Origin: an uncultured Gammaproteobacteria bacterium
Lineage (GTDB): Bacteria > Patescibacteriota > Patescibacteriia > UBA9934 > CAZDDW01
DNA length: 64,000 nucleotides
Direction: 5' to 3'
NCBI GenBank assembly: GCA_964504365.1
Contig: CAZDDW010000001.1
Coordinates: 132,293-196,292 of the forward strand
Within the stretch, counting starts at the first letter, position 1; the number at the start of each line of letters is the position of its first letter. The notes under the pieces are model-generated. The model was not told where the DNA came from. It searched no databases and saw only the letters and a program-made list of their open reading frames with translations. Of this stretch, positions 37,723 to 44,909 are shown piece after piece. Both the position numbers and the translations under genes were made by a program.

Positions 37723-38826
37723 ATGTTTAGAATTCCAGGTTTTAGTCGACAATTTGATTGGATGTTAGCTGTAGCTGTTTTTGCCTTGGTTTTGCTTGGC
37801 TTGGCAGCAATTTATAGCGTGGCCCTTTCGCAAGAGAGTGCTGATTTTTTATTTGTTAAAAAACAGCTGATCGCGCTGTTAATCGGTGTGGGCTTGTTTG
37901 CTGTATTTGCTTTTACTAATTATCGATTACTTCGAAGCTATAGTGCGATTTTTTATGTTCTTGGTATTTTGCTCTTGGTTCTGGTTTTAATTTTTGGAGT
38001 TACGGTTCGCGGAACCACGGGTTGGTTTTCAATGTTTGGTTTTAGCTTTCAGCCGGTTGAGCTAATGAAGATTATTTTGGTTGTTGTTCTGGCACGCTAC
38101 TTTGCTGATCGAGCTCGGCGGCAGCTGGGTTGGCGGGAGATCCTTGAAAGTGGGGGGCTTGCCGCGATTCCAGTTGGATTGGTCTTGTTGCAGCCTGATC
38201 TGGGTTCTGCTTTGGTTTTGGTTTTTATCTGGGGCTTTGTTTTAATTATGTCTGGACTGAAGAAACGACATGCACTGGCCCTGTTTGCCTCTGGAACGAT
38301 CGTATTTATTTTGTCCTGGTTGTTCTTGTTCGCTGACTATCAGAAAGCTCGCATTCTGACCTTTTTAAATCCAACAGCGGATCCTCTGGGTCAGGGCTAC
38401 AACGTGACACAGGCAATTATTGCTATTGGTTCTGGTCAATGGTTTGGTCGTGGTCTGGGATTTGGGTCGCAGAGCCAACTTAAGTTTTTACCTGAAGCAC
38501 AAACTGACTTTATTTTTGCTGTGATTGCTGAAGAGTTGGGTTTCTTAGGGGTCGCTCTAATATTAACGGCTTTTGCCTTGTTGTTCTTGCGCATCATTCG
38601 TTTAGCCAAGCTATCAACAGATAATTTCACCAGCTATTTATTGCTCGGTATTGGTGGGTCATTGTTTTTCCAGTTTGTAGTCAATGTCGGCATGAACCTG
38701 GGATTATTGCCAGTGACAGGAATTGCTTTGCCCTTTGTTAGTTACGGTGGATCAGCCCTGATCTCGGCTCTACTTATGCTTGGGATCGTGGAAAGTATTG
38801 CCTTGCGCACACAAAGCGTGAGATAA
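37723..38826 (+). CDS. SEDS-family peptidoglycan glycosyltransferase (FtsW/RodA)
   Basis: 10-TM profile, conserved GxxGxSQ.K.LPEAxTDFIF motif. Confidence 0.85.
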   Translation: MFRIPGFSRQFDWMLAVAVFALVLLGLAAIYSVALSQESADFLFVKKQLIALLIGVGLFAVFAFTNYRLLRSYSAIFYVLGILLLVLVLIFGVTVRGTTGWFSMFGFSFQPVELMKIILVVVLARYFADRARRQLGWREILESGGLAAIPVGLVLLQPDLGSALVLVFIWGFVLIMSGLKKRHALALFASGTIVFILSWLFLFADYQKARILTFLNPTADPLGQGYNVTQAIIAIGSGQWFGRGLGFGSQSQLKFLPEAQTDFIFAVIAEELGFLGVALILTAFALLFLRIIRLAKLSTDNFTSYLLLGIGGSLFFQFVVNVGMNLGLLPVTGIALPFVSYGGSALISALLMLGIVESIALRTQSVR

Positions 38827-38836
38827 TACTTATAAT

Positions 38837-39169
38837 ATGTTTCCTTTGCAAAATGCCAATCTTTGGAACGAGAGCTTGAAAGTGGTTTCTCAATGTCCGC
38901 TGTGCCAATCGCGTCAAAATGATATGGAGGCACGTATGCTTGGGCAGGACGGCGAGGCCCGCTTGTTGTACTTGAATTGCCACAAATGTGGAAATTCGTT
39001 ACTAGCTCTTGTTTTAGTTTCGCATGGTGGAGTAAGTTCGATCGGCATGGTCACAGATCTGACTTACGACGATGTCCGGCGGTTTCACCAGGTCGACCAA
39101 GTTTGCACAGATGATGTGCTGGATATACATCAGGCTTTACAGGATCAAGATTTCATGAAAGCAATATAA
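38837..39169 (+). CDS. small zinc-ribbon protein
   Basis: CPLC...CHKC pairs. Confidence 0.4.
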   Translation: MFPLQNANLWNESLKVVSQCPLCQSRQNDMEARMLGQDGEARLLYLNCHKCGNSLLALVLVSHGGVSSIGMVTDLTYDDVRRFHQVDQVCTDDVLDIHQALQDQDFMKAI

Positions 39170-39182
39170 TAAAAAGAAAGCG

Positions 39183-39210
39183 GACCATCCTGGCGGATGG
39201 TCCTTTTTTG
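39183..39210. terminator. bidirectional intrinsic terminator bounding the cassette array
   Basis: ggaccatcc-tggc-ggatggtcc hairpin with A-run before and T6 after. Confidence 0.65.
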
Positions 39211-39224
39211 ATCCCGAGTTACGG

Positions 39225-39770
39225 TTAGGGCAAGAGCTTGGACAGCTCGTTGATGATGCCCGCGTCGTGGTCCGGGTGAAGGGAAGGTTCTCGGTGGCAG
39301 GAGCCGTGGCAGGGGACCAGCTTGACCGAGTGTTCCTGGTGGTGCGGCGAGTTGGGGTCGGCCCAGTGGCTGAAGTCGGTGCGGATGATCAGGTGCTGGT
39401 CGCCAAGGCAATAGTCGATACCGCTGCCGGAGCGCTTGGCGTAGTAACGATCAAAGCGAGCGCCGACGATCGGCTGACCACTGTCGATTAGTTCCTGAAC
39501 TCCATCGCCGAGGGTGATCTGGCTGTGCAGGGTGCGTTTGCCGTCCTGAAGGGTCTTGCTTCGCCAGCGCTTGATCATCTTGGCCAGCTCGATCGCTTTC
39601 ATGCGCTGCTGCACCTGGCAGGAACCGTCACAGGGGCCATGCACATCTTCCAGCCCGGTTTCGCAGTTGTAGGTTACGTGAATCAGGCCATTGACGCACC
39701 AGTACTGGTCATCGATTCCATCGACCGAGTCGGCGTCATAAACCACAACGTGAAGGCGAGGGGAAGTCAT
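39225..39770 (-). CDS. array gene A: Cys/His-rich hypothetical protein
   Basis: ORF track 39225-39830; start ATG 39770 after GGAG, 33 nt downstream of repeat R1; GC-rich. Confidence 0.45.
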   Translation of the reverse strand: MTSPRLHVVVYDADSVDGIDDQYWCVNGLIHVTYNCETGLEDVHGPCDGSCQVQQRMKAIELAKMIKRWRSKTLQDGKRTLHSQITLGDGVQELIDSGQPIVGARFDRYYAKRSGSGIDYCLGDQHLIIRTDFSHWADPNSPHHQEHSVKLVPCHGSCHREPSLHPDHDAGIINELSKLLP

Positions 39771-39803
39771 AAGACATCTCCGTTGATTGTTTGAAAGTAC
39801 GTT

Positions 39804-39843
39804 CCCATCACAGAACACGATCGTGGTCATGTGCTTTGATTGG
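39804..39843. repeat. array palindromic repeat R1 (cccatcacagaacacgat-cgtg-gtcatgtgctttgattgg)
   Basis: imperfect inverted repeat; matches consensus shared by seven copies. Confidence 0.8.
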
Positions 39844-39877
39844 AGCTCGATTTGTAGGCATCGAGCAGGCCTCCTTT

Positions 39878-40177
39878 CTAGGGAAGTAGATGGTTAACAT
39901 CAATGGCATGGCAAATGACGACCTGGTCTCCCGTAACCAGTACGCCGAGTTCGCTATCCACAATTTCCTTGGCTCCGTGCTCCTTGTGTTTGCAACGAAT
40001 GGCCACGCGCACTCGATGCGTTTTTCCGGTCAGATTCAGCTGAGCGTAGACAGTACAGCCGTGTTGGCATTCTGGTTGGATTCGGTGGTCAAGGGTGTCG
40101 AGATGGTGCATGATCAGGTCATCAGCGTCTCCCGTGACCTTCCAGTTGCCATAGTTCGGATAAAAACTCTCGTACAT
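39878..40177 (-). CDS. array gene B: hypothetical protein
   Basis: ORF track 39878-40219 (its first ATG lies inside R2); likely start M15 at 40177 after GGGGA RBS. Confidence 0.4.
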   Translation of the reverse strand: MYESFYPNYGNWKVTGDADDLIMHHLDTLDHRIQPECQHGCTVYAQLNLTGKTHRVRVAIRCKHKEHGAKEIVDSELGVLVTGDQVVICHAIDVNHLLP

Positions 40178-40211
40178 TGTGTCCCCTAAGAATTTAGTGT
40201 TGAAGGATCGA

Positions 40212-40252
40212 TCCATCACAGAACACGATCATGATCATGTGCTCTGATGGGG
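40212..40252. repeat. array palindromic repeat R2
   Basis: tccatcacagaacacgat-catg-atcatgtgctctgatgggg. Confidence 0.8.
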
Positions 40253-40269
40253 TGCCCAAGAAGATTGGG

Positions 40270-40815
40270 CTAGTGAGTGGCCTGCCAAGGCCGTTGATTG
40301 CGGCCTGTGATCCGTTGCAGGACCAAGGTCAGCGAAGGTGGGGCGTGGGGAAGCAGGGCCTCCCGGATCCGGTGGCGACGCTGGTATCTGGCGTCACGGC
40401 GAAGGTGGGGGAAGAGCGGAGCTAGTTCCGGGTCGCTCAGGTTATCGAACACGTGCAGGTACAACAGGCGGAAGTTTTCCTCGGCCGAAGCCGCCTGCTT
40501 GTCGGGCATCTGCTCTCGTGCTCTGGCTGCCGTTGCCCAGAACTGGGATCGGGCTCGCTCGAAGGTTTCCTGCCAGCGCTGTCGTTCGCGTTCCTGTGCT
40601 TGTCGTATGCGCTCACGCTTCTCGGCGTTGGCCAGGGCCACGGCGTGTCGCTGCTGGTCAATGGACCAGTTCATGGCCAGTCGGTGGGCGTAGGCGGTGG
40701 GGTTGTCCGGTTGGGCCTGTTCGACCCGGCCGACCAGCTCGTCGAGCTTGTCGGGGCTGCAGGTTTGACCGTAACGGTCGATCACGTCGGAGATTACAGT
40801 ACGGATGTCAGTCAT
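40270..40815 (-). CDS. array gene C: Arg/Glu-rich coiled-coil hypothetical protein
   Basis: ORF track 40270-40851; start ATG 40815, 28 nt downstream of R3. Confidence 0.45.
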   Translation of the reverse strand: MTDIRTVISDVIDRYGQTCSPDKLDELVGRVEQAQPDNPTAYAHRLAMNWSIDQQRHAVALANAEKRERIRQAQERERQRWQETFERARSQFWATAARAREQMPDKQAASAEENFRLLYLHVFDNLSDPELAPLFPHLRRDARYQRRHRIREALLPHAPPSLTLVLQRITGRNQRPWQATH

Positions 40816-40843
40816 CTGGGGTTCCTTGCGGATAGGGACGATT

Positions 40844-40883
40844 CCCATCACAGAACACGATTTTCATCATGTGCTCTGAAGGG
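40844..40883. repeat. array palindromic repeat R3
   Basis: cccatcacagaacacgat-tttc-atcatgtgctctgaaggg. Confidence 0.8.
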
Positions 40884-41237
40884 TTGCCCGACCAGAACGG
40901 CCGGGCAAGAGGCGCAACTCACTGACAGTGGTATCAGTCAGAGGATGCTGTGACGGTGCGAAAACAACTGCTTGTCCCACCCCATGACAGATCAAGGGGC
41001 CTATTCCTGACCTGCCATGAGTATGACATGGCAACCTAACACCCAAGAGTGCCACTTCGTTAGGTGCTGGTTGACAGCTGCAAACCACCAATCGCTGGGT
41101 TTTTCAGTTCTCCTGCGTATACCAACGCACATGCCTTTAATGGATAAACCCAGAAACCAGAAGTACTACCGGGGAAACATGTAACCCCATGTTATTAGGA
41201 CACTGCCTTGATCCTTTGTTTTCTGTTTTGTGTTATT

Positions 41238-41277
41238 CCCATCACAGAACACGATTTAGATCATGGGCTATGATGGG
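41238..41277. repeat. array palindromic repeat R4 (followed by an empty slot, no convincing ORF to R3)
   Basis: cccatcacagaacacgat-ttag-atcatgggctatgatggg. Confidence 0.8.
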
Positions 41278-41585
41278 TGCCCGAGGATTCGGGCAAGAAG
41301 TATAGGAGGGGGAGACACGATGGAAACGTGTAGCTTTTGTGAGTGCTAAGGGCTAAATCTTCAGCGCTAATGGTTGAGGGCTAAGTCTTTGAATGCTGAA
41401 CCCTGAGGCCATAGCCTTCGCTGTCGATGTCAAGCTCTTAGAGCATCGGCGTAAGCCGAGCACTCCTGGCGTCCTTTCGGACGATCAGTTTGTTACTACA
41501 TATCTCGACCGTGCTCCCCCCACCAAATTGGACTGAACCGTTAGGGCTGGGGGCCCTTGGGAACAGTGTCAATCTAGTGTTTTTC

Positions 41586-42103
41586 CTAATTCGTCGGGAG
41601 GGGGGTGGTGTGGTTGGTGGACTCGAGAAGGTCGTTCAGGGCCTCGATCCGTTCTTGCAGTCGCTCGATACGCTGGACGCGCTCGGGTTCGTGCAGAGCG
41701 GCTTCGTAGGTTACCATCTCGTACTCGGTCTCGTAGGTCCGCGGGTTGGTGCCGGTCTGCTCGCGGCGATCGCCGTAGGTCAGGTTCAGACGCTGCCAGA
41801 AAGCGATCTCGCCAGCCAGCTCGCTCTTCAGGCGAACGGCCAGGGTCAGGCTGATCTGGCGGTCCTCGAACTCGATCGTCGTCGTCGCGTTGGCCTCGGC
41901 GATGCCGGCTCGCAGGCTCATCAGCTCCTCGACCAGCTCCTGGCGCTGGGCGACCAGATCGTCGAAGACGAACTCTGGTTCCAGGTCCTGGCGCCAGCTG
42001 ACGTGGGCCTCGGACGCTGGGTGATGGTACTGATGCGTCCCTCGATTCGGCTGGCGTTGCGCAAGGCCTGGGCGATGGTCAGGGTGGTCTGGGTGGCGGT
42101 CAT
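41586..42103 (-). pseudogene. array gene D: hypothetical protein interrupted by a frameshift near 41921
   Basis: two ORFs (42103-41921, 60 aa; 41921-41586, 111 aa) abut in different frames; first starts 35 nt downstream of R5 after AGGGAG RBS. Confidence 0.4.
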
Positions 42104-42138
42104 GTCAATGTCTCCCTATTGGGTGTTGAAGGTTCGTT

Positions 42139-42178
42139 CCCATCACAGAACACGATTTAGATCATGGGCTATGATGGG
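42139..42178. repeat. array palindromic repeat R5
   Basis: identical to R4 across the element. Confidence 0.8.
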
Positions 42179-42228
42179 TGGCTCTGAGCCGCAGAGCGTG
42201 CCAGCAAGGACTGCTGGACTTTGGTGGG

Positions 42229-42489
42229 CTAAAGGTGGAAGAGGGTTTTCCACTCGCCGTCACACCGTTTCTCGACGTAGTGTGAGGTCTGGACGTGACT
42301 CCCGGTCACCGGGTCCTCGTGGTAGTCGTGAGGAGGAGTGTAGAATCCCGATGTCTCGAAGCGGTCCCTGCCTGGCGTTTTGTCGAATTTTCCGCGCCAC
42401 AGCACTTGGCAAGTCCCTTCTGTACAACCGGAGCCATCTCCTTGGTAAAGGTGGTAGGTGAAAGTTCGGCGGACAATGCGGAACAACAT
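42229..42489 (-). CDS. array gene E: hypothetical protein
   Basis: ORF track 42229-42531; start ATG 42489 after GGAG, 27 nt downstream of R6. Confidence 0.4.
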   Translation of the reverse strand: MLFRIVRRTFTYHLYQGDGSGCTEGTCQVLWRGKFDKTPGRDRFETSGFYTPPHDYHEDPVTGSHVQTSHYVEKRCDGEWKTLFHL

Positions 42490-42516
42490 AGGAGACTCCG
42501 GTGGATAGGGATGATT

Positions 42517-42555
42517 CCCATCACAGAACACGATTTAGATCATGGGCTATGATGG
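42517..42555. repeat. array palindromic repeat R6
   Basis: cccatcacagaacacgat-ttag-atcatgggctatgatgga. Confidence 0.8.
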
Positions 42556-42864
42556 ACACCCGGCACGTATTGCCAGGTGGAAAGAAGTTGGGGAAGACAC
42601 GCTATCAACCCGGAATGGTGATGATCCAGGGTACCCTGGATTTACGAACGCCGACCAAGGCGCCATCACCTTACGTCACTCTGGTGCACCTCTTCCGTCG
42701 AAGAGAGTGCTTATACCCATCAGAGCATGGGGTCCCATCAGCGTGAGCTGCGGGAGAGCAAGAACTCTTTAGACGCTTCGAGTGCTTGCCGGGGTCCGTG
42801 TGTTTGGTCGATGGTGGTCACCTATCTGGCCGACACACCCACACCACCCCTGGATATTTAATGT

Positions 42865-42904
42865 CCCATCACAGAACATGATTTAGATCATGTGCTCTGA
42901 TGGG
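42865..42904. repeat. array palindromic repeat R7 (downstream slot about 310 bp without ORF; contains relic ctgatggg fragments)
   Basis: cccatcacagaacatgat-ttag-atcatgtgctctgatgggg. Confidence 0.8.
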
Positions 42905-42944
42905 GTGCCCAGATAACTGGGCAGAAGTGGAGCGGTGGGTAGGC

Positions 42945-43196
42945 CTAGGCGGCCTGTGGGAGCTCCTGGGGCGGGGTCTCGCGGCGCTCATCGGGCTGAC
43001 CCGGGCGGCGCAAGATACGGACGTAGGGCTGTGCGGGGCTGGGCTGACGCGACTCGGCACGCAGCTGTTGAGGCGAGGTGGTGAACCAGGCTCGAAGTCG
43101 GTGTACGTTTCCGTAGCAGTTGGTGTTGAAGTTGCGCATTTGCTGTCCCCTTTGTGTGTTGAACGAACATTCAGTTTTACCCTGAACGCTGATCAC
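42945..43196 (-). CDS. array-proximal low-complexity ORF (GTG start; alternative ATG 43139)
   Basis: only ORF between R7 and the control region; no repeat upstream; weak. Confidence 0.2.
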   Translation of the reverse strand: MISVQGKTECSFNTQRGQQMRNFNTNCYGNVHRLRAWFTTSPQQLRAESRQPSPAQPYVRILRRPGQPDERRETPPQELPQAA

Positions 43197-43478
43197 CTCC
43201 TGGCCTTCTCTCCAAAGGTCAGTGCTGGTGAGGTGAATCAGTCTTCAAGGTAAAATAAGTTGTAATGTCTTGATTTGCCTTGGCCAGATCGTCGCTGTGT
43301 GTTCGTAAGCTCTGCTCGAGCTTATTACCTCCTGGAATCAGATTGAACCGACTGGCGATAGATCTAGTGGTTCTTATCAAGCATGGAGCTAAGAACCGCT
43401 ACGCATTTAGGCAAAATAAAACGATGCTAGTGAGTATGTGGCTTGCTGGAGCCACAGATCGACCAGCATCGAACAAAG

Positions 43479-43507
43479 CATACTAGCATGGATTTAAAAA
43501 CTTGTCA
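43479..43507 (-). promoter_or_regulatory. promoter TTGACA-17-TAGTAT pointing into the array, followed about 15-65 nt downstream by a hairpin plus U-run (attenuator or short sRNA)
   Basis: hexamers and spacing; minus-strand hairpin gatgctggtcgatctgtggctcc...gccacatactcactagcatc then GTTTTATTTTG at about 43400-43465. Confidence 0.45.
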
Positions 43508-43612
43508 AGCCCTGGTGTACAAACCAGGTTTTTTTGTAGATTATTTCGCTAAATTTAGGTAAGTCAGATAAAAAAATAGGTCCAGGCATGCCGGACAAGG
43601 TCTTGCTTTGGG

Positions 43613-43641
43613 CTTGACAAAATAGCCGTTTTATGCTATAC
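43613..43641 (+). promoter_or_regulatory. promoter TTGACA-17-TATACT (plus), divergent from the array promoter
   Basis: perfect -35, 17-nt spacer, TATACT -10. Confidence 0.55.
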
Positions 43642-43649
43642 TTGCTTGT

Positions 43650-44133
43650 TCCTGTGAAAACCGTTGGATTTTGTTCCGGGATCTATCTCGGCTTAATCTG
43701 CTTTTTTCGACAGGCTACCGTGAGGAGGATATATGAAGATGGGTGATTGATGACCGAGTTTCAGGGTTACAGCTTCACAAGATGGGCTGCGGCTAGATTC
43801 CACAATGGAGAACCAAGGAAAACGATCCTTTTACTGCTACGGGTAGCCCCCGAGTTGACAATGGGACAAGGCTGAGGTTTCCAAGCCGATCTGCCGGAAG
43901 ACGCCGGCGATCAGATCGCGCCAGTTAAGGGCGCAAACGATGACGAACAAAGGAGGGTGCAACGTGCACTCCTAAGTCGCGATAGGCGACATCTTCGACA
44001 CCGAAACCAGCCAAGCTCCGAATGTCAACAGTCCGCCAACGAAAGGAGGCGAACATGGGTGGCTAGCCCTCTTGGACCCGGCTCGGACGCGCACTTCAGC
44101 GCGTCCGGGTCGGGACCAGATACTCAATAAGAA
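43650..44133 (+). ncRNA. candidate about 500-nt noncoding or small-ORF transcript of unknown function
   Basis: bounded by strong promoter and terminator; no ORF >=60 aa; GAGGAGG RBS with 5-codon uORF (MKMGD) overlapping the ATG of a 41-codon ORF; 19-bp-stem hairpin 44066-44109. Confidence 0.3.
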
Positions 44134-44163
44134 AACCTGCCTAATGGCAGGTCTATTTGTTTT
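44134..44163. terminator. bidirectional intrinsic terminator
   Basis: acctgcc-taat-ggcaggt hairpin with T-run after and A-run before. Confidence 0.6.
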
Positions 44164-44168
44164 CAAAA

Positions 44169-44909
44169 TTATTTGTTGTATTTATTCCAAAGCCCTTTTA
44201 GCAAAGCTCGTTGTGTGGCAGCAAAGTCCTTATTCTCAATAACAATCATGTTACCACCCTTTTCAAAACTGACCATAACCACTGTGTCGTCGTATACAGC
44301 AACGTCACCTTTGAATTCGCCAATGTCTTTTTTATCGACCTTGCAATAACTGACCATCTCTCGATTCCTTATTTTATCGCCTGAATGCATGAAGTATACT
44401 CTAACATTCTTTAGTTCCATTCCTTGTCTGGCTTGGTCAACTGTTTCTTTTGTAAAGTGTTTATAGAGTTCATCAACATTTGACAGCTCGTACATTTCCT
44501 TAGGTTTTTTTTTACATACATCATCAAAGAAAGCATAAAACATTTCTGTGCCTTGGAAAAAGCGGACCTTTGGCCGTTCGCCACCCGCCAGTAGTATCAG
44601 GTCATCTAGCTTTTTTTCAATTAAAGATACTTTATTTGAGAATTCAAGTTGCTGTCCTTGCAAGTGTTGAAGAAGTCGATCCGGCTCTTCAGCAACATAG
44701 AGTGTTTTTTTACCACGTTGGTAAGTAGAAAAAAGCTCTTTGCTTTTTAGGTTTTCGATTGCATCATAAGCTGCGGTCCGTGATAACTTGGCTGCTTTGG
44801 CAATGTCTTGAACACTGGCTGCGCCGAGCTTGAGTCCGGCTAGATAAGTTTTGGCTTCAGACTCGGTCATGCCGAGCGCGTGAAGGATTGAAGTAAAGTC
44901 AGTTGGCAT
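44169..44909 (-). CDS. TrmB-family transcriptional regulator
   Basis: N-terminal winged HTH LGMTESEAKTYLAGLKLGAASVQDIAKAAKLSRTAAYDAIENL typical of TrmB; low GC. Confidence 0.6.
   Translation of the reverse strand: MPTDFTSILHALGMTESEAKTYLAGLKLGAASVQDIAKAAKLSRTAAYDAIENLKSKELFSTYQRGKKTLYVAEEPDRLLQHLQGQQLEFSNKVSLIEKKLDDLILLAGGERPKVRFFQGTEMFYAFFDDVCKKKPKEMYELSNVDELYKHFTKETVDQARQGMELKNVRVYFMHSGDKIRNREMVSYCKVDKKDIGEFKGDVAVYDDTVVMVSFEKGGNMIVIENKDFAATQRALLKGLWNKYNK

What the first reader, a model, noticed from the sequence alone, without database searches (positions are those of the whole stretch)
40884..42864. Signs of cassette decay or turnover inside the array: two empty slots and a frameshifted gene
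The R4 slot (40884-41237) and the R7 slot (42556-42864) hold only a dubious 74-aa ORF or nothing of 60 aa or more on the array strand. The R7 slot keeps relic fragments of the repeat arm (ctgatggg, ctctgatgggtat). Gene D is split into 60-aa and 111-aa ORFs abutting at 41921 in different frames. Downstream of gene D there are about 300 bp with tandem gggctaa(a/g)tct motifs and no ORF. This pattern fits slots being gained, lost or decaying independently, rather than an operon under uniform purifying selection.
Basis: seen in the sequence. Interest (0 to 1): 0.55.

Follow-up and report, generated by a model that had tools for sequence, protein, structure and literature searches.

The report
Swappable small-gene array with hairpin boundaries
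A 4-kb row of small unknown genes in an uncultivated bacterium is divided by a highly conserved double hairpin at which whole gene units are gained and lost; the broken gene in it is real, and at least one of the "empty" stretches looks like folded RNA rather than debris.

Summary
Both slots lack credible ORFs. Gene D is frameshifted in four independent assemblies. About 300 bp after D has no ORF.

Corrections:
- The lesion in D lies near 42022-42030, not at 41921.
- The repeat relic in slot R7 is inverted.
- The gggctaa motif occurs only twice.

- An intact 171-aa homologue of D exists (85% identity, DUF6847).
- A related species carries an array at the same chromosomal site. Its 42-nt palindrome is 85-95% identical, while housekeeping DNA is about 68% identical.
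- Only three of the cassettes are shared between the two arrays.
- Two otherwise identical strains differ by exactly one 507-bp unit. The junction lies inside the palindrome.

The "empty" parts are not plain decay.
- They show no codon periodicity.
- The 288 nt after D folds far better than shuffles (z -7.1 sense, -3.3 antisense). Slot R7 is moderate (-3.4) and slot R4 weak (-1.95).

The array is not an integron. It has no attC boxes, and no recombinase lies within the 64 kb.

The closest analogue is the PeSL-bounded hyperplastic regions of T4-type phages. The exchange mechanism is inferred, not shown.

The parts
43480..43508 (-). Sigma-70-like promoter candidate that could drive the whole array (TTGACA-17-TAGTAT, with TG)
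   Evidence: This is a consensus match only. No promoter-like site recurs inside the repeat units.
42945..43139 (-). P_A, 64-aa ORFan and first gene of the array. It has no palindrome upstream.
   Evidence: the 120-nt windows across the gene read GC1 0.80, GC2 0.55, GC3 0.85 once phased to the corrected ATG at 43139. A 64-aa gene of the same length is called in the relative's contig.
42864..42923 (-). Boundary unit r42866: variable GC hairpin HP1 followed by the conserved palindrome HP2
   Evidence: sense -35.3 kcal/mol, z -7.4.
42582..42863 (-). Slot R7 core. It is ORF-less, has no codon periodicity, and is moderately structured.
   Evidence: z -3.4 sense, -2.8 antisense. No similarity to the relatives' cassettes.
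42713..42741 (+). Inverted relic of the HP2 left arm: CCCATCAGAGCA, and CCCATCAG 18 nt downstream
   Evidence: partial profile hits at 42716-42727 and 42734-42741 on the plus strand.
42516..42579 (-). Boundary unit r42518 (subtype B left arm CATCATAGCCC)
42229..42489 (-). P_B, 86-aa ORFan
   Evidence: No Pfam, PHROG or PADLOC family.
42138..42197 (-). Boundary unit r42140 (subtype B). It is 100% identical over 41-44 nt to r41239 and r42518.
41586..42103 (-). Gene D, a frameshifted DUF6847 gene. The lesion lies at about 42022-42030.
   Evidence: Codon periodicity is still strong (GC3 0.86), so the lesion is probably recent.
41298..41585 (-). ORF-less structured tail of the D cassette, a candidate non-coding RNA or structured 3' UTR
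   Evidence: z -7.1 sense, -3.3 antisense; coding controls -0.85 to +1.3. No Rfam hit.
41237..41296 (-). Boundary unit r41239 (subtype B)
40908..41236 (-). Slot R4 core. It is ORF-less, has no periodicity, and is only weakly structured.
   Evidence: z -1.95 sense, -0.26 antisense.
40843..40905 (-). Boundary unit r40845
40270..40815 (-). P_E, 181 aa, a member of an unannotated all-helical family
   Evidence: 64 distant relatives. AlphaFold2 pLDDT 94.8. No significant PDB or viral fold match.
40211..40270 (-). Boundary unit r40213
39878..40177 (-). P_F, 99-aa ORFan with a CxxGC...C.H motif
   Evidence: Orthologue g98 (49% identity) and paralogue g89 in L020.
39803..39868 (-). Boundary unit r39805, the most degenerate copy
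   Evidence: z -2.4; lowest score. HP2 is replaced by another hairpin at the same junction in L020.
39225..39770 (-). P_G, 181-aa Cys-rich ORFan and last gene of the array
39182..39203 (.). Bidirectional intrinsic terminator shared with the convergent host 110-aa gene. It marks the end of the array.

Best explanation
The region 39.2-43.2 kb is a hyperplastic array of small ORFan cassettes at a fixed chromosomal site. It lies between a TrmB-like regulator gene and ribosomal protein L25 on one side, and a 110-aa zinc-ribbon gene, FtsW and GyrB on the other.

Each junction between units carries a twin hairpin on the coding strand. The first hairpin (HP1) is GC-rich, variable, and travels with the upstream gene. 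The second (HP2) is a 42-nt asymmetric palindrome that is nearly invariant.

Shown:
- The units are exchangeable. Their content differs between species and between strains.
- A one-unit difference has its junction inside HP2.
- Gene D is a real, recently inactivated gene.
- The ORF-less stretches are non-coding. At least the one after D has strong, sense-biased RNA-like structure.

Inferred:
- The array is read as one transcript from a promoter near 43.5 kb.
- The twin hairpins act on that RNA as intercistronic punctuation, either as a processing site or as a stabiliser of 3' ends.
- Because HP2 is long and near-identical at every junction, it also serves as a portable patch of homology. Ordinary recombination there deletes, circularises, re-inserts or swaps units. 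This is the logic proposed for PeSL motifs in T4-type phages.
- Individual units then live and die independently. Hence a fresh frameshift in D, non-coding units, and a decaying HP2 at the oldest fixed junction (P_F|P_G).
For: - Repeat anatomy.
- HP1 differs in sequence at every junction but always forms a hairpin. Its mean free energy is -10.7 kcal/mol against -3.6 +/- 2.6 for 26-nt windows of array coding sequence.
- HP2 in 12 copies from two species shows 89% column identity and 93.8% paired cells. One pair varies as U-G, C-G and U-A. Two mismatch positions stay unpaired in almost every copy.
- HP2 is 85-95% identical between species whose housekeeping DNA is about 68% identical. It is also present upstream of a P_E-like gene that is only 38% identical, in a third lineage (L024).
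- A one-unit 507-bp difference has its junction inside HP2.
- Cassette content differs between species and in the 3300072015 relative.
- The frameshift is reproducible and intact homologues exist.
- GC and GC3 differ widely among cassettes (L020 ranges 0.36-0.57).
- The ORF-less cores are structured and coding controls are not. A structured tail also follows the g73 gene in L020 (z -4.3).
- In L020 the P_F'|P_G' junction keeps a twin-hairpin shape with a different second hairpin. This suggests that structure is selected as well as sequence.
- PeSL precedent: PMC2839356, PMC4122927.
Against: - There is no expression data. The single promoter and the RNA role are inferred.
- The sense-strand folding advantage holds in 7 of 7 window copies but in only 3 of 5 copies in L020.
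- HP2 is conserved in sequence far more than a mere hairpin needs. The near-constant mismatches and fixed orientation suggest recognition by a specific protein. That protein could be a recombinase encoded elsewhere.
- Covariation statistics are weak because HP2 barely varies.
- Gain of new units has not been observed, only presence or absence.
- The contigs of the nearest relative (3300072015) have no DNA available, so the ORF-less slots could not be aligned.
Confidence: 0.5

Rival explanations
1. A dedicated cassette-capture system that works like an integron. HP2 would be the recombination site of a site-specific recombinase encoded elsewhere in the genome. Units would be excised as circles and inserted at HP2.
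For: - HP2 has extreme sequence conservation, a fixed orientation and near-constant mismatches.
- The one-unit difference has its junction inside HP2, between two copies that share the same loop, CCAA.
- Left-arm variants travel with the upstream gene family. The CAATCA variant follows P_F in the window and g89 in L020.
- The array contains non-coding units, as integron arrays also do (my own knowledge, not tested here).
Against: - No tyrosine, serine or HUH recombinase lies anywhere in the 64-kb window.
- There are no attC R''/R' boxes.
- The last gene has no downstream site and the first gene has no upstream site in the window. An integron array would end with a site.
- A 34-nt identity is enough for ordinary homologous recombination.
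Confidence: 0.25
2. An ordinary foreign operon with conserved intercistronic regulatory hairpins. These would be RNase sites, operators or roadblock sites. The differences between genomes would be ordinary insertions and deletions, with no special role for the repeat in gene exchange.
For: - The hairpins always sit 12-50 nt upstream of the next start codon, in one orientation.
- The genes are unidirectional, with one promoter-like site and one terminator.
- P_E, P_F and P_G keep their order in three lineages.
Against: - The one-unit difference ends exactly in two repeats.
- The upstream half of the array is completely different between species, while the repeats are more conserved than housekeeping genes.
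- GC3 ranges from 0.36 to 0.86 among cassettes.
Confidence: 0.15
3. HP2 is a small selfish palindromic element of the REP or MITE type that has invaded the intergenic gaps of this island.
For: It is an imperfect palindrome in intergenic positions. An inverted relic lies in slot R7.
Against: - All seven copies lie in 4 kb and none in the other 60 kb.
- In L020 the copies are likewise confined to the array.
- All copies have one orientation at a fixed distance from start codons.
- No RAYT or IS200-type gene was seen.
- There are no target-site duplications.
Confidence: 0.07
4. The frameshift and the empty slots are assembly or sequencing artefacts, or the high-GC segment is a chimeric join.
For: The lesion sits next to a short C run. 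Some assemblies break at the identical repeats (L002 and L003 end at 41269).
Against: Four assemblies from two projects give the same sequence across D and both flanks. The related species has the array at the same site.
Confidence: 0.03

Closest known systems
PeSL motifs (promoter-early stem-loops) in the hyperplastic regions of T4-type phages (Arbiol et al. 2010, PMC2839356; Comeau et al. 2014, PMC4122927)
   Same: Both are short, conserved composite motifs with a stem-loop. Both sit between small non-essential ORFan genes in a variable region. In both, insertions, deletions and replacements between close relatives end in the motifs. Recombination between motifs is the proposed mechanism.
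   Different: No sigma-70 promoter is found in the unit and no U-tract follows the hairpins. The motif here is a twin hairpin with a 42-nt asymmetric palindrome. The setting is a bacterial chromosome at a fixed site, not a phage genome. Mini-circles have not been shown.
Integron cassette arrays and CALINs (clusters of attC sites lacking an integrase)
   Same: Both are unidirectional arrays of mostly promoterless small ORFs, each separated by a folded imperfect palindrome. Both show unit-wise presence or absence, heterogeneous GC, and ORF-less units.
   Different: There is no intI in 64 kb. There are no RYYYAAC/GTTRRRY boxes. The site is 42 nt with symmetric mismatches, not 57-141 nt with extrahelical bases. 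The palindrome lies strictly between units and not after the last one.
RNase III processing sites between genes of phage T7 polycistronic transcripts (my own knowledge)
   Same: Both are conserved hairpins with internal mismatches, placed between cistrons of a long transcript. An adjacent stable hairpin is left at the 3' end of the upstream message.
   Different: Cleavage is untested here. T7 sites are not known as boundaries of gene exchange.
pdif (Xer) modules of Acinetobacter plasmids (my own knowledge)
   Same: Both are discrete gene modules bounded by short imperfect palindromes, recombined by a recombinase that is not encoded in the module.
   Different: dif-like sites are 11-6-11 nt with alternating orientation. 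HP2 is 18-4-18 nt, always in direct orientation, and has no dif-like sequence.
REP/BIME and Correia-type intergenic palindromes (my own knowledge)
   Same: Both are imperfect palindromes in intergenic gaps of operons that fold in the transcript.
   Different: Those elements are scattered genome-wide. HP2 is confined to one array in the sequence available.

Membership tests
Integron | An intI tyrosine recombinase gene next to the array | tested here: not met
   Pfam domains of all larger ORFs in the 64-kb window are housekeeping or unknown. No integrase or recombinase was found.
Integron / CALIN | attC sites with R'' (RYYYAAC) and R' (GTTRRRY) boxes 40-150 nt apart | tested here: not met
   No such pair occurs on either strand of 39100-43300. 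The IntegronFinder attC covariance model could not be run.
Integron / CALIN | A site 57-141 nt long with extrahelical bases and an unpaired central spacer | tested here: not met
   HP2 is 42 nt, with an 18-bp stem, two symmetric mismatches and a 4-nt loop.
Integron / CALIN | A unidirectional array whose units vary in presence between relatives | tested here: met
PeSL-bounded hyperplastic region | A composite motif containing a strong sigma-70-type promoter | tested here: not met
   The promoter scan finds no recurring site in the seven units. Other promoter types are not covered by the scan.
PeSL-bounded hyperplastic region | A stem-loop acting as a terminator | tested here: inconclusive
   Stable hairpins are present in all units, but no T-run follows them. 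Function was not tested.
PeSL-bounded hyperplastic region | Insertions and deletions between close relatives that end in the motifs | tested here: met
   L021 against L020 and L022: a 507-bp unit, with the junction inside the shared 34 nt of HP2.
REP/BIME | Many copies dispersed over the genome | tested here: not met
   Seven copies lie in 4 kb and none in the other 60 kb. The rest of the genome was not available.
dif/pdif Xer site | An 11-6-11 nt site with a conserved XerD arm (TTATGT...) | tested here: not met
   By inspection of alignment A5. No such arm is present.
Pfam DUF6847 (gene D) | A full-length match to PF20935 above the gathering score of 27 bits | tested here: inconclusive
   Repaired D scores 19.0 bits over profile positions 7-140 of 141. 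The intact relatives P0001 and P0003 pass, at 27.7 and 28.5 bits.
Known RNA families (Rfam 15) | A covariance-model match for the ORF-less stretches or the repeat | tested here: not met
   No match at gathering score in the window. Only chance-level hits appear at E up to 10 in 38800-44300.

The most novel reading that the evidence does not exclude
A previously undescribed chromosomal platform for capturing gene cassettes, found in a lineage of uncultivated aquatic bacteria. It would work like an integron but use a different site: a 42-nt asymmetric palindrome paired with a cassette-borne hairpin. Its recombinase would be encoded elsewhere. It would carry structured non-coding RNAs as cargo alongside small fast-evolving proteins.
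Probability: 0.25. Interest if true: 0.85.

Novelty: new variant of a known kind. Interest (0 to 1): 0.62.

Why it matters
Cassette arrays bounded by recombination-prone motifs are well documented in integrons and in T4-type phages. This array has the same modular behaviour in a bacterial chromosome, with an unrelated boundary element and no linked recombinase.

The boundary element is better conserved than housekeeping genes across lineages whose cargo proteins have diverged to 31-60% identity. That makes it a handle for finding further arrays and their rapidly turning-over cargo in metagenomes.

If a dedicated recombinase exists, this would be a second, independent invention of the integron principle. 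If not, it shows that a regulatory hairpin alone can make a chromosomal locus modular.

The ORF-less units also raise the possibility of structured RNAs carried as mobile cargo.

Tried and rejected
- **Public collection scans.** Exact-pattern scans for the repeat found nothing in viral contigs or in genome representatives. In JGI metagenome contigs the only hit was a chance match inside a coding sequence (L013). That collection evidently lacks the samples that hold this population, so absence there is weak evidence.
- **Search for relatives.** A scan for relatives of the TrmB-like neighbour in genome representatives found none.
- **DNA and protein similarity.** DNA similarity of the whole array to phage and plasmid records gave nothing meaningful. 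A tblastn of repaired D against phages found nothing. Protein-based scans of viral contigs with D', P_G and P_E found nothing.
- **Concatenated-protein query.** One large protein search was wasted on a concatenated query.
- **Annotation libraries.** Pfam, PHROGs and PADLOC give no function for the cargo proteins. The exceptions are DUF6847 for D and a weak tail-fibre PHROG hit (E 7.6e-6).
- **Structure prediction.** The P_E fold is confident but matches nothing significant in the PDB or BFVD libraries. The P_G model was too poor to use (pLDDT 38). The afdb50 library was unavailable.
- **Programmed frameshifting in D.** I considered this and rejected it. No slippery heptamer lies at the homology-defined site, and the close relative encodes the protein in one frame.
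- **Slots as decayed copies of relatives' cassettes.** Local alignments of the slots against each other and against the L020 cassettes are at shuffle level.
- **CRISPR, tRNA or tmRNA integration, and known RNA families.** All were excluded.
- **Strand bias of folding.** It is clear in the window but not in the relative, so I do not use it as proof of an RNA role.
Full report
**What is there**

The window is a low-GC chromosome, about 43% GC, with housekeeping genes throughout. It carries a 4-kb segment of 54-59% GC at about 39.2-43.2 kb.

All credible genes of this segment lie on the minus strand. In reading order they are:
- P_A: 64 aa, 42945-43139
- P_B: 86 aa, 42229-42489
- D: frameshifted, 41586-42103
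- P_E: 181 aa, 40270-40815
- P_F: 99 aa, 39878-40177
- P_G: 181 aa, 39225-39770

The segment ends at a bidirectional terminator (39182-39203). This terminator is shared with a convergent 110-aa zinc-ribbon gene, which is followed by FtsW and GyrB. On the other side lie a promoter-like site (43508 to 43480, minus strand), an unidentified structured GC-rich stretch, a TrmB-like gene and ribosomal protein L25.

**The boundary element**

Seven copies of a 42-nt imperfect palindrome separate the units. The sense form is ACCCATCAGAGCACATGATCTAAATCGTGTTCTGTGATGGGA.

A profile built from the copies finds only these seven in 64 kb. All are in one orientation: 47.7-54.4 bits, against 15.7-29.1 bits when read in reverse. 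So the palindrome is asymmetric and oriented.

Each copy (HP2) is directly preceded on the coding strand by a second hairpin (HP1). HP1 differs in sequence at every junction but always forms a GC-rich stem. Its mean free energy is -10.7 kcal/mol, against -3.6 +/- 2.6 for windows of array coding sequence. HP2 ends roughly 25-50 nt before the next start codon.

HP2 has an 18-bp stem. Two mismatch positions stay unpaired in almost every copy. One pair varies as U-G, C-G and U-A across copies.

**Checking the finding**

Both slots are ORF-less as stated, and the 74-aa ORF in slot R4 is not credible. Codon-phase GC shows strong three-base periodicity in every gene. It shows none in slot R4, slot R7 or the 300 bp after D.

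Gene D is split exactly as described. The downstream frame is open all the way back to about 42105. Alignment to the intact relative places the lesion at about 42022-42030, as a 1- or 4-nt deletion. Position 41921 is only where the ORFs meet.

The same ungapped sequence occurs in four independent assemblies from two projects. One of them was also called as 60 + 111 aa. The frameshift is therefore a fixed feature of this population and not an assembly error. D keeps very strong codon bias (GC3 0.86) and has no other stop codon, so the lesion is probably recent.

Repaired D matches Pfam DUF6847 end to end. Its intact relatives are P0001 (171 aa, 85% identity) and P0003 (173 aa, 35% identity), and both pass the Pfam threshold.

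The repeat relic in slot R7 is real but lies in inverted orientation, and its statistical support is modest. The gggctaa motif has two copies only.

**Comparative evidence for turnover**

Looking up the genomic context of P_E homologues gave the decisive data.

*A related species.* Contigs L020-L023 come from other samples, one of them a High Arctic meromictic lake according to PMC7887784 and PMC9723730. This species has an array at the same site, next to the 110-aa gene, FtsW and GyrB.
- Housekeeping DNA is about 68% identical to the window, but HP2 is 85-95% identical.
- P_E, P_F and P_G are shared in the same order, at 60, 49 and 31% protein identity.
- The upstream half is entirely different. 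It has genes of 73, 132 and 89 aa where the window has P_A, slot R7, P_B, D and slot R4.

*A strain-level difference.* Within that species, L021 differs from L020 and L022 by exactly one 507-bp unit. The unit consists of a 73-aa membrane peptide gene, its structured tail, HP1 and HP2. The flanks are otherwise 100% identical, and the junction lies inside the 34 nt that the two flanking HP2 copies share.

*A third lineage.* L024 has a P_E-like protein of only 38% identity. It carries HP1 plus a nearly identical HP2 upstream of the gene.

*A fourth relative.* For JGI 3300072015 only gene tables are available.
- D' is intact at 85% identity, but P_G' is only 58% identical.
- An extra 123-aa gene follows P_G'.
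- The spacing between P_A' and D' differs from the window.

*Further signs of separate histories.*
- GC3 ranges from 0.36 to 0.86 among cassettes.
- HP1 and the left-arm variant of HP2 travel with the upstream gene family.
- At the junction between P_F and P_G, the gene pair that stays linked in three lineages, HP2 is the most degenerate copy in the window. In L020 it is replaced by a different hairpin.

Together these results show that units have separate histories and that exchange happens at HP2.

**Are the empty stretches debris?**

Not obviously. I refolded the cores with HP1 and HP2 removed:

| Segment | z, sense strand | z, antisense strand |
|---|---|---|
| 288 nt after D | -7.1 | -3.3 |
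| Slot R7 core | -3.4 | -2.8 |
| Slot R4 core | -1.95 | -0.26 |
| Six coding controls | -0.85 to +1.3 | same range |

- The tail of the g73 cassette in L020 is also structured (z -4.3).
- The 3300072015 relative keeps a gene-free interval of similar size after D' (822 against 771 nt).
- No Rfam family matches.
- The slots resemble neither each other nor the relatives' cassettes.

I read the stretch after D as a probable structured RNA, either a 3' UTR element or a small RNA. Slot R7 is possibly one. Slot R4 is undecided and may be a dead unit.

**Mechanism**

Shown:
- Modular units
- A conserved, oriented twin hairpin at each junction
- A one-unit difference with its junction in HP2
- Pseudogenisation of D

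Inferred:
- A single promoter and a read-through transcript
- An RNA-level role for the twin hairpin, with a processing site in HP2 and 3'-end protection by HP1
- Recombination between HP2 copies as the means of loss, circularisation, re-insertion and swapping of units

The rival is a dedicated recombinase encoded elsewhere. Several features keep it alive: HP2's extreme sequence conservation, its near-constant mismatches, its fixed orientation, and the identical loops of the two recombined copies. However, no recombinase lies in the 64 kb, and the array ends without a terminal site.

The strand bias of folding holds in 7 of 7 window copies but only 3 of 5 in L020. It is therefore not decisive.

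**Comparison with known systems**

The array is not an integron or a CALIN. There is no intI, there are no R''/R' boxes, and the site architecture is wrong.

It is not REP-like, because the copies are confined to the array. It is not dif-like.

In behaviour it is closest to the PeSL-bounded hyperplastic regions of T4-type phages (PMC2839356, PMC4122927). It differs from them in three ways: there is no promoter in the motif, the stem-loops are not terminator-type, and the setting is chromosomal. In anatomy it also recalls the intercistronic RNase III sites of T7 (my own knowledge). I found no description of such an array in the paper library, but that search was shallow.

**Verdict**

The turnover interpretation is supported by independent comparative evidence. 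The "empty means decayed" part is only partly right.

The array as a whole is a new variant of a known kind, and it is of real interest. The specific decay signs are a modest but genuine part of that picture.

Noticed in passing
window 43614-44172 (+): A strong sigma-70-like promoter (TTGACA-17-TATACT, 11 of 12 matches) precedes about 480 nt of 54% GC with no ORF longer than 57 aa. An intrinsic terminator follows at 44135-44152. The stretch folds with z -5.8 on the plus strand and -4.85 on the minus strand. It has no Rfam or ARAGORN match. It is a candidate unknown structured RNA, lying between the TrmB-like gene and the array's promoter-like site.
   Followed up: partly
L022 66-1504; also L021 1-957: In the related species an ISL3-family transposase with 28-nt terminal inverted repeats sits immediately upstream of the first boundary unit of the array. 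It hides whatever originally preceded the array.
   Followed up: partly
L026 299-410 and 970-1080: A more distant P_E-family gene is flanked on both sides by a different direct repeat of about 110 nt. This repeat also contains two adjacent hairpins. Twin-hairpin boundaries may therefore be a general architecture with lineage-specific sequences.
   Followed up: no
window 40270-40815 (P_E): P_E belongs to an unannotated family with 64 cluster representatives at E <= 1e-3. It has a very confident all-helical AlphaFold2 model (pLDDT 94.8, including a 63-residue helix). No significant match was found in the PDB or in viral structure libraries. The best weak hits are sigma factors.
   Followed up: partly
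window 38837-39169 (+): A 110-aa zinc-ribbon protein gene (CPLC...CHKC) lies convergent to the last cassette. A 110-aa gene holds this position in all three lineages for which gene tables or DNA are available. It could simply be a neighbour, or it could be linked to the array.
   Followed up: no
L006 1330-1611 (window P_F, 39878-40177): One sample carries a variant of P_F with 93 instead of 99 aa, which implies an in-frame 18-nt deletion. This is strain-level length variation in a cassette gene.
   Followed up: no
L014 2832-3353: The distant DUF6847 homologue P0003 sits in a small island of short ORFs next to trigger factor. The gene region is 58% GC against 39-45% in the flanks. That island has its own 32-nt-arm palindrome (2079-2143) but no HP2.
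   Followed up: partly
window 41237-41280, 42138-42181, 42516-42557: Three boundary copies of subtype B are 100% identical over 41-44 nt. They follow three consecutive units: slot R7, P_B and D. This suggests joint acquisition or recent gene conversion. Some assemblies break exactly here (L002 and L003 end at 41269).
   Followed up: partly
window 1-64000: No tRNA, tmRNA or Rfam family at gathering score was found in the whole 64 kb.
   Followed up: no
window 43219-43380 (-): A 53-aa TTG ORF of host-like GC lies between the promoter-like site and P_A. The 3300072015 relative has a gene call on the same strand that ends the same 80 nt before its P_A'. This may be a leader ORF. It shows no codon periodicity.
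   Followed up: no
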